A stretch of DNA of 64,000 nucleotides from Amoebophrya sp. A120 (Eukaryota > Protista > Dinoflagellata). Within the stretch, counting starts at the first letter, position 1. Each line of letters starts with the position of its first letter. The stretch covers positions 835,386 through 899,385 of the forward strand of contig CAJINV010000016.1 in assembly GCA_905178155.1 (NCBI GenBank), in the 5' to 3' direction. The position numbers and the translations under genes were made by a program. Below the pieces are notes generated by a model. The model was not told the origin of the DNA. It saw only the letters and a list, made by a program, of their open reading frames with translations, and made no database searches. Below are positions 1,692 through 62,700 of the stretch, piece after piece.

Positions 1692-3847
1692 ATGCCCTCC
1701 ATTAACAGTCTGCTTCTGATCGCGCCGCCAGGTGGTGGCAAGGGAACGGTGACGAAACTTTTGCTGAACCGGTGTAAATATGCATAATGCAAAAGTAACG
1801 TACTAGTATAAATTGCATTACAAATTTTGGCAAGAAAAAAAATGGAATTTGTAATGCTGTTTTACCTTAGGAGGAAGATTTGTCATGCGTATTTGCAAGT
1901 AGTACGAGTACGATACTTTTGCACAGCATAGTAAAGCGCTTTTCTCCCAGTACCCGCAGCAGCATTTTTCCATGGGGGATGTGTTGCGGAAAAATTTGGA
2001 CCAGCTGCCACAGGACCAACAGGCAAAGATGCGGAACGGAGAATTACTCCCGGCGCAGGACCTGAAGGAAATCCTGTTTCGGGAGGTGCGGAATTGCCTT
2101 GGTGGTAGTTCTAGCGCTGGAGGTGGCCACGCGGTCGTGGACGGCGTGAATCTTCAGGGTGGTAGAAATTGTAGTGCCGTCAGGGTGGAACATCAAGATG
2201 CCTCTCTCGACGACAATTACAACGGCACTAGCAGTCGTCCACCTTGGATCATCTTGGATGGGTTTCCGCGCACGGTGGAGCAGGCGAAACTACTGGAGCA
2301 GGAGGACGAGAGAAGTGATGAACATCAAATAAGCGATAGCACTCCTACTTCTTCTCGTGTTGACGCCGAGGACCCTGCAGATAGGACGACTATCACGCCA
2401 AGTATCCACAAAAAAACGAGAGCCATCCCCGTTCATTTTTTGTATAGCAAGGAGTGGATTTTATGCATGTTTTGTGTGACAAATTCGATAAGGATGGTTC
2501 TTTTTTTGTGGATCATACCAAAAATCGCCGTCTTCCTCGATGTGCCAACGGAGGAAATCTTGGACCGCATCGAGCACCGCTTGATCCACCCCGGTTCTGG
2601 TCGGACGTACAATGAAAAATGGAACCCGCCGAAAGTCCCCAACGTCGATGACGTGACTGGAGTATGAAATGTAAAAATGTCTGGGTCTGGAAGAGTGCAG
2701 ATTTGTCGTGCACATTTTCCATGCCCCATGAGGGCTGGAATGCAGGACCTAGCATCACAGATTTTCGGAATGCCTCCTAATGCCTATTCCGTTTGTAAGA
2801 ATAACCCAACAAGGCAACACTGGAGCTCCACCTTGCTCGCGGGCTTGGATGGTAAATCAGGTCAGCCACATCTAGCGCCCACTGGCCGTACTCACGCGTA
2901 AGCAATCGCAAACGGTTCGGCGGATGCGGTCGGGTGGTACCTGTAGGACGTGGAACGGGTGTCCACCTAGGGGTATTGGCAGAGGCTAAATCTGTTCTAA
3001 CGCCACGGCATTGGCAGAGGCTAAATCTGTTCTAACGCCACCCTGACAGGAGTCAAATGTCAAAGCGATGCGATACGATACGCGTAGCACAATCTGGGCT
3101 CCTCTTGCTGGTCATGCAATACGGATTTTTTTAGAATCCAAAGACAGCATGACAAGTTTGGATCCTTCCAGACCCAGACATTTTTGCAATGCATATGGAG
3201 AACCGCTGGAACGGCGCGCGGACGACGATTTCGCCACAGTGAAGAGGCGATTGGAAGTTTTTCGCGAATTCACTTGGAAACCGCTTTTGGATCACTACGT
3301 CGGGCAGAGACCACCACGGCGGGGAACAAGTACACAAGATGAACTACACGAGGACGGCTGCACGTCAAAAACAACAACCTTCATCGTCTCCGGAGACGGG
3401 AAAGGCGCGGGGCTAGTGCAGCAGTTGACTTCAGCAGCAGCTGGTGATCCAAATCGTTCTGCTTCGGGACGAACAAGAACAGGCCCCCGTGATGTCTTCG
3501 ACGTGGCGAAGAATCTGAATTTGATTAACCAGGGCCGCCGGAGCGAGGCGATCGTCGAAGAGCTGTTGGCGTGTCCGGAATTCCGCAGCTTGCTGGGGCT
3601 GGACGCTCTTGAACGTGAGCACAGCGCAGGCGCAGATTACACTGCAGAAGGCCACCAGAGCGGAAGATTTCTCTCGAGCGACGAACAAGCCCCAGCCGTG
3701 TTGAACAGTTGTGCGGTTGTAGCCGAGGGCAAGGGTATTACTATTAGACAAGAGCCAATGGGGCGAGAAGAGGTGGCGGGAAACAGTGAACGCTCGCGCC
3801 AACAAGGAGCCGCTTCTACACGAGCTCCTGTGTACTCACGACTGTAA
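1692..3847 (+). CDS. adk: Adenylate kinase, 4 exons split by three introners (1779-1930, 2403-2517, 2663-3195)
   Basis: P-loop APPGGGKGT after ATG 1692, then [12 protein letters not shown] and the LID region HPGSGRTYN...[14 protein letters not shown]. The LID motif is rejoined only after removing the introner; stop TAA at 3847. Confidence 0.93.
1779..1930. mobile_element. Introner, family B (non-canonical intron in adk)
   Basis: Ends TATGCATAATGCAAAAGTAACGTACTAGTA / TACGAGTACGATACTTTTGCACAGCATA. TSD GTAAA (1774-78, 1931-35). Removal restores RC-K-ALFSQY. Confidence 0.9.
2403..2517. mobile_element. Introner, family D (120 nt with TSD, in-frame and stop-free)
   Basis: TATCCACAAAAAAA...TTTTTTTGTGGATCATA flanked by CCAAG/CCAAA. 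Removal gives [13 protein letters not shown], typical of the AK beta strand. Confidence 0.8.
2663..3195 (-). mobile_element. Introner, family A, inverted relative to the 58354 and 59472 copies, with about 290 bp of internal extra sequence
   Basis: TIR TGTAAAAATGTCTGGGTCTGGAAG / CTTCCAGACCCAGACATTTTTGCA. Perfect TSD TGGAG. Removal restores [12 protein letters not shown]. Confidence 0.92.
2975..3041. repeat. 32-bp direct repeat x2 inside the introner cargo
   Basis: ATTGGCAGAGGCTAAATCTGTTCTAACGCCAC at 2975-3006 and 3010-3041. Confidence 0.9.
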
Positions 3848-59700: not shown

Positions 59701-62700
59701 CCCAGACATTTTTACATTTGATAAACCGGGAGTCGGCGCAGATTTCCGACAACGTGTATTTCCCCTACGAGAACACGGAGAACGTCATGGCTTTACCCGA
59801 TGGAACCACCGTCATCCATAACGAGAACGCCGTCGTGACCCAGACCACCGCAAATGTGGATGCCGGAGTCATCCAAATGCGGTTTTCCCGGTATTTGGAA
59901 GATCCAGATTTTTTGGAAAGGGAACTGGATCGATTCGAAAAGCAATTTCCGGCGTGGATGAGTGCGGAGCAGTTAGTTGCGGAAGGGTATGTGCAGAAGA
60001 AGGACAAGTACAAAATTCTGGTCGCGCGGAGACAGCGAAATTTGCTGTTTGACAAAGCCTATGAACTGCAAAAGTATCGCACTCGTATAAATGCATTACA
60101 AATCTCCTCAGCATGAGAAATAAAATTTGTAATGCGTTTTGACCTTAACAACAGGATTTGTAGTGCATGATTGCAATACGAGTGCGATACTTTTGCACAG
60201 GATAAAGCCGAACACGCCTACGCGTTAGCGGATATTCTGCCATTGGGAATCGAGGAACGGACGGACAAGATTCCGTATTGGATTTTTTTCTGCTTTTTTA
60301 GCCCTCCTTGCTGGGCTTTTATTTTCGCATGGGACTTGCTTTGTGTTAGTGTTTGTCGCCTGTGCATAACAGAATGACAGGTTGTGTGGTCTGTGTCTGT
60401 CTAATCCAGCATAAAGAAAGTTTTGTGGTTTAAGTACTTACTCACGTTATCCAGAGTCTTCAACTTAAAAAGAAACCGAACCTATCAGCCTTCTCTCTTG
60501 GTCCGGCCTCGGCGAGTGGTTTTTCGACAAATTTGTGCCTACCGACGGCGACCGAAACCAGCGGATGGGTGGCTCCTTAGACCACATCGCGCTTCGCAAA
60601 CCGAACGAATTACGCCAGTGGTTCAACAAGCGACGGGATGAGGGCACGGCTTTGCACAAACTCGCCGAGGTTTACTACAATTTGCTAAATGACCAGAAGT
60701 GGCAGAACCACATTGAATTTCTCTCCAACAAGAATCCGGAGTGGTCTTTGGGGTTTTTGATTTTTGCGAAGGAATTTGTGAAGAACATCTGGCAAGCCGA
60801 GCCTTTCGCGACGGAGTTGCGCATGTACTACCGGCCATTGCTGATTTCCGGCACGACAGACATGCTGTTTCAAAGGACCAACCCTCGCACCGGCGAACTG
60901 GAATTCATCATGTGCGACTGGAAGCGGATGGCGGTCTATGGATTGCAAATGTGTCTGGGTCTGGAAAGTTCTTGGAACTTGTATTGCTGCTCTTACATTC
61001 CTGTGAAATCTCTATTGCATGACCAACAAAAGTCGCAGCCTCTCTCGTCATACAAAAACGCAGCTTTTCATGCGGACTGCGTATGAGAAAGCGTTCTCCA
61101 TCAAACTTGTCATGCTTTCCCGCATAAGGAAGGGTTCTCTTGATGCGCATTTTAGCATCAGAAATTTCTAGACCCAGACATTTTTGCATTTGATACGGTC
61201 CTGGACAACCGACAGTATTCCCCGACGGAACAAGATTTGTCGCAGGAGCAGCTAGAGCTCGCGGAGGATCACGAGTTCGACCGGATTTCTGCGAAATTTC
61301 TCGAATCCGCCCCTGACTACGTGAAGAACAAGCGCAACAGCCGGCTGTTTTACCGGTTGGAATTGGTGAAGAAGGCCTTTCAACAGCCCTGGATGATGAA
61401 TCGCACGTTTAAATACTCTCTGCAGCTACGGAATGCAGAAGTACTGTACTTGTAGTAATCTTCGCGATCCCTCATCACAAATGTGCTTTTTTAATGCCTG
61501 ACCGTGCATGGCAAATCCAAATGTTACCTTTGCTTCTGAAAAAATTTGTGATGCAATTACTACAAGCGCGGTACTTTTGCCATGCATAACCGCTATTGTT
61601 CTACAAGTGGATGGCGGAATTGGTGTACGATATCGAGATCAAGTACACGTGGATCGTTATCCTGCATAAAAACGTCCCCACCTCCCCGGAGTTGTCATGC
61701 AACTGTGCAATGACAGGAACATCTGTAATGCGCAGCTCCATGAGAGGTATCGTATTTCCAGATCCAGTCGTGTTTTGGAATTTGTAATGCTGTAAACAGG
61801 ATGACAAGATGGCTTTTTCGTGTAGCTTCCGTTGCCAACTAGCACTACACTGCATGAGGCAAGCTTGTCATGCGCAACTCCCAAAACTTGGAGATTTGTC
61901 TAGCAGATTTCCCGACATCGTGAGTATTGGGATGTGGGGACGTTTTTACAAATGATAATCGTTCTGATCAATCCGGTGGAAAAACTCTCCGAGAAAATTA
62001 TGACTTGCTCAAACGTTACAATCTCAAACGTTACAATAGAATCTGGAATTTGTGTTGCATGATTAGCATGACAGACTCGCACAGCGTCCCACCTTTTGCA
62101 ACACAAATTTCGCCACATTCTAGTGAAGATTGAGACTCCGGATCTTATCATGCGCAGTCCTATGAGAGTTGGCTAGATCATGCACTTCTTGCATCACAGA
62201 CTTCCGGATTCTATTGCAACGCTTGAGATTGTAGCACCTGAGCAGGTTATAAAAATGATCTTCCTCGACCGGAGAATCGGGGTCGAAGTGTACCCGGTGG
62301 ACGGGTGGACCGACCATTTACATGCGTATGCAGTGCAAAAGTATCGTACTCGTACTAATTGCAGTTTATGCATTACAAATCTAGTTCTTAAACGTAAATC
62401 CGCATTACAAATTCAAGTCTGTAAGTAATGCTGAGCCAATTTGTATTGCGATTTATACTAGTACGATACAACTTTTGTACAGGATAATGCGCGACTGCAA
62501 GCGATCATCCAAACCCGGCACGAGAGTCTGCTCGCAGCAGGTTACAACTGGGGGAACGTGGTGAAGGATGTTGAGCCACTGTACCCAACCGTGAGTTCCC
62601 TGGACGAGTTGCAGACGGAGAAGTTACCCGCTTTGCCGGTCAGGAAGTCGAAGCCGGTGTATTGGCAACATCTTCAGGCAATGATGTTAGGTGGGACCAC

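What the first reader, a model, noticed from the sequence alone, without database searches (positions are those of the whole stretch)
1779..62486. Genome-wide non-GT-AG intron system: 25 TIR transposon-like introners spliced out of conserved genes
Seen: 25 elements in about 8 families (A x10, B x6, C x3, D x2, 4 singletons) interrupt coding sequences. All have TAT/TAC...ATA ends, family-specific terminal inverted repeats and a 5-nt flanking direct repeat (sometimes decayed). Removing element+5 nt restores frame and conserved motifs in adk, H3, CDC5L, EI24 and msrA, so these housekeeping genes need precise excision. No register gives GT-AG. Known: inverted-repeat/direct-repeat introner elements in non-canonical introns were reported in Amoebophrya, and to my knowledge their splicing mechanism is unresolved. 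Inference: excision is defined by the terminal hairpin rather than by dinucleotides, and different TIR families share one TAT...ATA/5-bp-TSD mobilisation chemistry.
Basis: partly seen in the sequence, partly recalled or inferred. Interest (0 to 1): 0.9.

Follow-up and report, generated by a model that had tools for sequence, protein, structure and literature searches.

The report
Transposon introns with hidden splice code
In a parasitic dinoflagellate (likely Amoebophrya), 28 small transposon-like elements interrupt genes and RNA contigs lack 19 of them exactly, an oddity already described; what is added is that worn copies place the cut one base before and four bases after the element, which would give these introns one hidden splice code, likely read by the spliceosome.

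Summary
Observation confirmed; the system is already known: A120-type Amoebophrya introners (Farhat 2021). I count 28 elements; 27 break their reading frame if kept. Transcript-like contigs of one sample lack element+5 nt for 19 of 28 (8 as listed joints, 11 by length sums). DNA contigs run through two elements intact. In another assembly, 243 of 330 elements have a perfect 5-nt duplication.

Added here: five RNA-read junctions with decayed duplications share only one cut position. The intron is N|TAY…RTA-NNNN: one base before the element, four after. TAY then sits at +2..+4, matching this genome's ordinary GTAY donor (10 of 11). One spliced element has no significant end hairpin.

Best model: the spliceosome, with relaxed +1 and no AG requirement, helped by the terminal stem (about 0.55). 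Rival: a separate, Euglena-like machinery (0.3). No lariat data and no transposase were found. The register rests on five junctions (chance about 0.04-0.07). The scan noted similar single introns in two other dinoflagellate genomes.

The parts
1779..1930 (+). family B element in adk; repeat GTAAA perfect
2403..2517 (+). short element in adk; repeat 4/5; reads through in frame if kept
2663..3195 (+). family A element (533 nt, reverse orientation) in adk
8179..8434 (+). family A element in unnamed gene
11593..11871 (+). family C element in the N-terminal tail of a histone H3 variant gene
17726..17925 (+). family B-type element in CDC5L; decayed repeat GCGAG/AGAAG; RNA keeps left positions 1-3
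   Evidence: joint 17723->17929, 4 of 4 runs
23608..23914 (+). element, skip 312 = 307+5
   Evidence: 4 of 4 runs
24212..24467 (+). family A element; repeat AGGAT/AGGAC; RNA keeps right position 5
   Evidence: joint 24206->24468, 4 of 4 runs
24528..24806 (+). family C element inserted at the 5' edge of an older element
   Evidence: alone (skip 284) in 1 of 4 runs, depth 6, 23-nt side; with its neighbour (skip 540) in 4 of 4
24812..25062 (+). old decayed element (TAG...ATA, right flank TTCGG), found through RNA
   Evidence: joint 24526->25067
31163..31328 (+). family B element, skip 171
   Evidence: 3 of 4 runs
31695..31957 (+). family A element, skip 268
   Evidence: 3 of 4 runs
32774..33047 (+). 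old decayed element, flanks TGGCA/TCCGA, no significant end stem, found through RNA
   Evidence: joint 32772->33052, 2 of 4 runs
43818..44075 (+). family A-type element in EI24; flanks TTTTT/ACTCC
   Evidence: A25 orthologue has F-R here; no RNA joint seen
44251..44580 (+). element in EI24
   Evidence: no RNA joint seen
46473..46721 (+). decayed element in msrA; RNA keeps left position 1
   Evidence: table 8 (X3, X4)
47165..47373 (+). element in msrA
   Evidence: table 8
49305..49614 (+). decayed element in a PAP2-family gene
   Evidence: no RNA cover in X3/X4
50877..51140 (+). family A element in a PAP2-family gene
   Evidence: no RNA joint seen
58354..58616 (+). family A element, long unnamed gene
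   Evidence: record 11; sum 525
58686..58937 (+). family A element
   Evidence: record 11; sum 525
59472..59723 (+). family A element
   Evidence: sum 621 with a GT-AG intron
60060..60204 (+). family B element
   Evidence: sum 621
60937..61195 (+). family A element
   Evidence: sum 1159 in X3 and X4
61427..61588 (+). family B element, decayed repeat
   Evidence: sum 1159
61658..61957 (+). family C element
   Evidence: sum 1159
61999..62251 (+). element (family of 3 in loci)
   Evidence: sum 1159
62327..62486 (+). family B element
   Evidence: sum 1159
17175..17341 (+). example of the ordinary GTAY-AG introns used as comparison (11 RNA-supported in the window)

Best explanation
These are small non-coding elements with terminal inverted repeats and a 5-base flanking duplication, likely Amoebrophrya-type DNA transposons; RNA contigs lack them with exactly one copy of the duplication, and they are likely cut at one fixed position by a spliceosome with relaxed ends. 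Shown: the anatomy, the 5-nt duplication, both orientations, removal of element+5 nt in RNA, presence in DNA. Shown for five junctions, inferred for the rest: the intron starts one base before TAT/TAC and ends four bases after ATA/GTA. Inferred: a shared transposase or integrase making a 5-bp staggered cut inserts them. The terminal U-A-Y is read as +2..+4 of the normal GUAY donor with any base at +1. The roughly 25-30 bp stem from the inverted repeats brings the ends together in place of U1/U2AF pairing, and the 3' cut is measured from the terminal RUA without AG. Because both ends read TAY inward, either orientation splices, and insertion leaves the protein unchanged. Odds by step: RNA-level removal 0.97; transposon origin 0.95; one fixed register 0.75; spliceosome as catalyst 0.55-0.6.
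For: RNA: 8 of 8 elements in 17000-36999 are skipped at element+5 (24812 only together with 24528). 11 more match by exact length sums 525, 621, 1159 and 708. The same contigs skip GT-AG introns and end in poly(A). DNA run X1 runs through 46473 and 49305 and 27-30 nt into other repeats. Register (k = left-copy bases kept): 17726 k 3-5; 24212 k 0-4; 24528+24812 k 4-5; 32774 k 4-5; 46473 k 1-5; only k=4 fits all. The A25 EI24 orthologue allows k 2-4. RNA-supported ordinary introns start GTAY in 10 of 11 against 12% background. In another assembly: 243 of 330 have a perfect 5-nt repeat, at most 3 at any of 4 or 6-10 nt, and control termini give 2 of 338. Flank frames scored separately need 5 nt in 109 of 125. 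Family A orientation is 31:30. Arm pairing drops to 39-75% at positions 4-7, so the stem base is frayed. From papers: nearly full spliceosomal protein set but no U1 found in A25/A120 (PMC7789003); U1 present in a GT-AG Amoebophrya (PMC12005148); U2 spliceosome reported for Fritillaria non-canonical introns (10.1101/2025.08.15.670264, introduction).
Against: The register rests on five junctions from one sample; random registers would share one by chance in 6.7% of draws, and k=4 in 3.9%. Contigs drop minor forms, so a mixed register cannot be excluded. A codon-model estimate on 28 decayed loci is flat across k 3-5 (3.3, 4.2, 4.1). 11 of 15 single-mismatch repeats are synonymous (27% random; P 0.017 against a 43% model), which a freely mutating intronic copy does not predict well. 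No branch point or lariat was shown, and there is no AG. U-A-Y is predicted about 80% paired in the folded intron and would need unwinding. The GTAY match could reflect shared ancestry of both intron types. No transposase ORF was found in the window or 410 kb of loci. 9 of 28 elements have no RNA evidence here.
Confidence: 0.55

Rival explanations
1. A separate, non-spliceosomal nuclease/ligase or second machinery recognises the terminal stem and cuts at fixed spacers (1 and 4 nt), as proposed for Euglena nonconventional introns.
For: 26 of 28 elements fold with 18-31 expected pairs between their ends, against 0-8.5 for 12 of 13 GT-AG introns. The geometry resembles the Euglena code N3CDG...CHGN5-6 (PMC12501133). 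Both terminal dinucleotides vary (21 kinds in 28). U1 was not found (PMC7789003).
Against: 32774-33047 is spliced at the same position with end duplex z -1.4; 24812-25062 keeps only a weak stem (z -2.9). TAY falls exactly on the ordinary donor's +2..+4. Ordinary and non-canonical introns share an intron-enriched motif.
Confidence: 0.3
2. [quoted passage not shown]
For: Synonymous excess in single-mismatch repeats, 11 of 15. 18 of 28 junctions cannot be placed. Chance of a shared register is 4-7%.
Against: All five placeable RNA junctions and one orthologue agree on k=4. The mirror register k=1, which would give AG/AC-like ends, is excluded by three junctions.
Confidence: 0.2
3. The joins are reverse-transcriptase template switches across hairpins between direct repeats, or the elements are cut out of DNA like ciliate internal eliminated sequences.
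For: Strong hairpins with flanking direct repeats are the classic artefact setting (own knowledge). Runs X3-X6 are only guessed to be RNA by the tool.
Against: Junctions with only 1-2 shared bases are joined precisely. 27 of 28 kept elements break the gene. DNA contigs hold the filled form without a break at the duplication.
Confidence: 0.03

Closest known systems
Introner elements in non-canonical introns of Amoebophrya A120 (Farhat et al. 2021, PMC7789003; Gozashti et al. 2025, PMC12130899)
   Same: Inverted repeat starting TAT, then about seven weakly conserved bases, then AAA; 5-bp direct repeat (Fig. S19 legend); about 240-260 nt; many families; RNA-supported non-GT-AG splicing; no transposase inside.
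   Different: The paper reports no clear end signature, repeats of 3-5 nt and an unknown border. Here the repeat is uniformly 5 nt and placeable junctions fit one position, N|TAY...RTA-NNNN. Their remark that the commonest A120 repeat is four bases upstream of the 5' end hints at the same; their logos were not visible to me.
Euglena nonconventional introns (Nomura et al. 2025, PMC12501133)
   Same: Self-complementary triplet at both ends, fixed short donor spacer, longer acceptor spacer, end-pairing stem, slidable junctions that hide the code.
   Different: Code N3CDG...CHGN5-6|R against N1-TAY...RTA-N4. No purine preference at the exon start here (16 of 28). The Euglena triplet does not overlay the ordinary donor; this one does.
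Fritillaria borealis non-canonical introners (10.1101/2025.08.15.670264, abstract and introduction; Henriet 2019 not read)
   Same: [quoted passage not shown]
   Different: Dominant AG-AN ends, U1 conserved, duplicated U2AF. Here +1 and the last two bases are free, and U1 was not found.
Aureococcus, Micromonas and Symbiodinium introners (PMC9860276, PMC11282704, passages)
   Same: MITE-like, terminal repeats plus target duplication, part of a splice site taken from the duplication.
   Different: They end up with canonical or GC/GA-AG sites; these take only a free +1 base and four free end bases.

Membership tests
Amoebophrya A120-type introner element | Inverted repeat at intron ends, starting TAT, weak bases 4-10, then at least three A | tested here: met
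   positions 11-13 are A in 88-94%; positions 4-7 pair in 39-75%
Amoebophrya A120-type introner element | 3-5 nt direct repeat over the exon/intron border | tested here: met
   18 of 28 perfect 5 nt; 243 of 330
Amoebophrya A120-type introner element | Repeated families | tested here: met
   22 of 28 cluster with copies in another assembly
Amoebophrya A120-type introner element | Spliced from RNA at non-GT-AG sites | tested here: met
   19 of 28; one sample
Amoebophrya A120-type introner element | Host is Amoebophrya | tested here: inconclusive
   The only hit for EI24 exon 1 is an Amoebophrya A25 protein at 75% over 22% of the query; the record is unnamed and was not traced
Non-autonomous TIR DNA transposon (MITE) | Terminal inverted repeats, fixed-length target duplication, both orientations, no coding capacity | tested here: met
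   (31:30)
Non-autonomous TIR DNA transposon (MITE) | Autonomous partner encoding a transposase with the same ends | tested here: inconclusive
   three elements of 972-1104 nt in loci; the two longest ORFs of one have no Pfam match, the other two were only read; 410 kb plus the window only
Non-autonomous TIR DNA transposon (MITE) | Empty site in a related strain | tested here: inconclusive
   loci share no flanks with the window; the A25 EI24 protein is continuous across the site, DNA not seen
U2-type spliceosomal intron | GT at the 5' end | tested here: not met
   at k=4: G 11, C 7, T 6, A 4 at +1; T at +2 in all 28
U2-type spliceosomal intron | AG at the 3' end | tested here: not met
   2 of 28 at k=4; 7 of 110 in loci
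U2-type spliceosomal intron | Branch point, lariat and dependence on snRNPs | not testable with these tools
   only contigs match; raw RNA run X9 gave 4 partial reads
Euglena nonconventional intron | N3CDG...CHGN5-6 and a purine at the exon start | tested here: not met
   N1-TAY...RTA-N4; purine in 16 of 28
Euglena nonconventional intron | Release as full-length circles | not testable with these tools
   no backward joint among 15 listed; contigs drop rare forms
Ciliate-type DNA-eliminated sequence | Excised from DNA | tested here: not met
   DNA run X1 contigs carry the filled form (table 8); rare excised DNA is not excluded

The most novel reading that the evidence does not exclude
All TAT-type Amoebophrya introners, tens of thousands per genome, obey one splice code, N|UAY...RUA-NNNN|, hidden until now by slidable junctions. 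The transposon end doubles as the +2..+4 core of the ordinary donor, so a U1-less spliceosome removes any insertion in either orientation without G+1 or AG. The geometry would converge on the Euglena code, and a shared intron motif (TTGTCATGC, either strand) would mark both ordinary and transposon introns.
Probability: 0.45. Interest if true: 0.75.

Novelty: already known. Interest (0 to 1): 0.5.

Why it matters
The elements are published, but their splicing is an open question, and the paper left the border unknown. A fixed position turns 'no signature' into a short code that can be checked with existing RNA-seq by keeping only non-slidable junctions, as was done for Euglena. It predicts which bases to mutate (U+2, A+3, spacers of 1 and 4). 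It explains why either orientation and any target site is harmless to the protein. It would also let gene finders model these introns. If the spliceosome is the catalyst, it works without G+1, AG or a detectable U1.

Tried and rejected
No own genome is held, and loci records are not searchable, so no genome-wide count or transposase search was possible. The family A pattern had 0 hits in viral contigs. Rfam found nothing in the window. In one search the DNA run swamped the joint table, so 11 elements rest on length sums and 4 (43818, 44251, 49305, 50877) show no joint; 1-16999 and 37000-43599 were never laid. Protein searches: one search found nothing (targets capped at 2000 aa); one search used the wrong frame and is void. 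The representatives search for ORF 37134-39338 was still queued and was not collected. The CDC5L row was off by one base and is corrected. Nearby in-frame GT/GC-AG pairs exist for 13 of 26 elements, but the RNA skips match element+5. Farhat Table S4 (9 of 9 top A120 pairs start NT) was rejected as independent support: 8 of 9 also end AN, which an aligner sliding between k=4 and k=1 would produce. Calling the terminal A a branch point was dropped: no consistent branch consensus in either orientation. The codon-model estimate of the register was too flat to use.
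Full report
Observation. I took 25 of 57 raw candidates, added the CDC5L element 17726-17925 by reading, and two more that RNA exposed: 28 elements of 115-533 nt. 18 have a perfect 5-nt direct repeat and 10 a decayed one. The window holds 23 TAY..RTA pairs with at least 20 of 30 arm matches, 16 with a perfect repeat; ten block shuffles gave 0-2 pairs and no repeat. 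Removing element+5 nt gives open frames in all 10 gene models, and keeping one element breaks the frame in 27 of 28 cases. Pfam supports adk, histone H3, Myb/CDC5, Snf7, MsrA, and more weakly EI24 and PAP2. No register inside the repeat gives GT-AG.

RNA. Eleven runs were listed. X3-X6 are contigs of one sample that the tool only guesses to be RNA; they skip six GT-AG introns and show poly(A) ends, so they behave as mRNA. On 17000-36999 all 8 elements are skipped at element+5: 205, 312, 261, 284, 171, 268, 279, and 540 for two adjacent elements together. On 43600-63599 the joint table was swamped by the DNA run, but gaps between contig pieces match prediction exactly: 525, 621, 1159 and 708 nt, covering 11 more elements. 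So 19 of 28 have RNA support, including CDC5L and msrA. DNA run X1 has flat depth near 30 outside the repeats; its contigs run through two elements and 27-30 nt into the repeats of others, so DNA holds the filled form.

Insertion chemistry. Of 330 TAY..RTA elements, 243 have a perfect 5-nt repeat and at most 3 have one of 4 or 6-10 nt; four control termini on 40 of the loci gave 2 of 338. Scoring the two flanks separately with a codon model, 109 of 125 confident cases (of 252 with enough flank) need 5 retained bases modulo 3. The 280 elements with a repeat of at least 4/5 fall into 18 clusters, 12 with three or more members; family A lies 31:30 to the coding strand; arms pair weakly at positions 4-7 and well at 8-30. 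No transposase was found: three long elements (972-1104 nt) look internally expanded, and the two ORFs scanned have no Pfam match. A 5-bp cut would suit a Copia-like integrase (own knowledge); PMC12130899 describes an A120 family with such an ORF, whose ends I could not compare.

The cut position. A perfect repeat hides where the cut lies; a decayed one shows it. With k the number of left-copy bases kept in RNA: 17726 gives k 3-5, 24212 gives 0-4, the pair 24528+24812 gives 4-5, 32774 gives 4-5, and 46473 gives 1-5. Only k=4 fits all five. The A25 EI24 orthologue has F-R at 43818, allowing k 2-4. Random registers would share a position in 6.7% of draws and k=4 in 3.9%, so this is good but not final. 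At k=4 the intron is N|TAY...RTA-NNNN. Position +1 is free (G 11, C 7, T 6, A 4) and the last two bases vary. The RNA-supported ordinary introns start GTAY in 10 of 11, against 12% background. The element's end therefore lies on +2..+4 of the normal donor.

Hairpin. 26 of 28 elements fold with their ends paired. The two that do not are the old ones: 24812-25062 keeps a weak duplex (z -2.9) and 32774-33047 none above shuffles (z -1.4), yet the latter is spliced at the same position in 2 of 4 runs. The 540-nt skip joins ends that are not complementary (z 0.1), but two successive steps explain it, and one candidate intermediate appears in X5 at depth 6. The stem probably helps but does not alone define the cut.

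Against my reading. Single-mismatch repeats in loci are synonymous in 11 of 15 cases, more than a free intronic copy predicts; this may reflect transition bias, constraint on the repeat, or a mixed register. A codon-model estimate does not separate k 3-5. U-A-Y is predicted mostly paired. No lariat or circle evidence was obtainable.

Mechanism. Most likely a shared transposase inserts TAY-ended elements with a 5-bp duplication (inferred). The spliceosome then reads N-U-A-Y as donor, the stem joins the ends in place of U1/U2AF, and the 3' cut falls four bases past RUA, leaving one copy of the duplication and an unchanged protein (inferred; 0.55). The main rival is a separate stem-guided machinery, as proposed for Euglena (0.3).

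What is known. Farhat 2021 (PMC7789003: abstract, sections 10-12 and 16, passages, supplement legends and Table S4 rows; figures not seen) describes these elements, with TAT starts, 5-bp repeats and missing U1, and leaves the border unknown. Also used: PMC12130899 (passages; rows 1-22 of 58 A120 rows of supplement 8; files 13-14 not searched), PMC11282704 and PMC9860276 (passages), PMC12501133 (abstract, passages, section 5), PMC12005148 (passages), and the tunicate preprint (abstract, introduction; supplements closed). Roy 2023 and Henriet 2019 were not read. I did not find a fixed register stated in searches, but the library lacks most subscription papers, and Farhat's Fig. 3 and S23 may show it.

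Verdict. The feature is real and already known as a system; the fixed N1/N4 register and its overlay on the GTAY donor are the added, testable part. Interest 0.5.

Noticed in passing
window introns; loci L001-L136: A motif TTGTCATGC (either strand, <=1 mismatch) occurs at 10.7/kb in elements (24 of 28) and 4.5/kb in GT-AG introns (6 of 14), against 0.27/kb in exons and 0.26/kb between genes. A related pattern is in 107 of 110 loci elements, 145:119 by strand. It could be a transposase-binding repeat, an intron mark, or a sign that some GT-AG introns are old introners.
   Followed up: partly
window 24527-25066: A young element sits exactly at the 5' edge of an old one; the main RNA form skips both (540 nt), a minor form only the young one. 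Possible stepwise splicing.
   Followed up: partly
window 39329-40691: A 1.36-kb inverted-repeat element flanked by the palindrome CATATG on both sides, with different ends, cuts off a 735-codon ORF (37134-39338) that has no Pfam match.
   Followed up: partly
window 13525-16880: Two tandem units of about 1.7 kb (88-97% alike), each starting with a copy of the 3' end of the upstream H3 gene at 12480-12527.
   Followed up: no
window 11286-12512: The histone H3 gene has a long divergent N-terminal tail, so it is a variant rather than core H3.
   Followed up: no
window 21923-22106 and 22375-22504: Two GT-AG introns of the Snf7-family gene have end-pairing stems above shuffles (z -2.9, -2.8), possibly old introners.
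   Followed up: partly
window 1692-63999: All ten gene models built, and the other genes read, lie on the + strand, as in the unidirectional clusters reported for Amoebophrya.
   Followed up: no
window 2403-2517: This adk element has a 3-base offset in one arm and reads through in frame, so it may be kept in some transcripts.
   Followed up: no
L010 105-1208; L044 2769-3799; L050 4024-4995: Long TAT...ATA elements with 5-nt duplications carrying extra internal sequence, without a recognisable transposase.
   Followed up: partly
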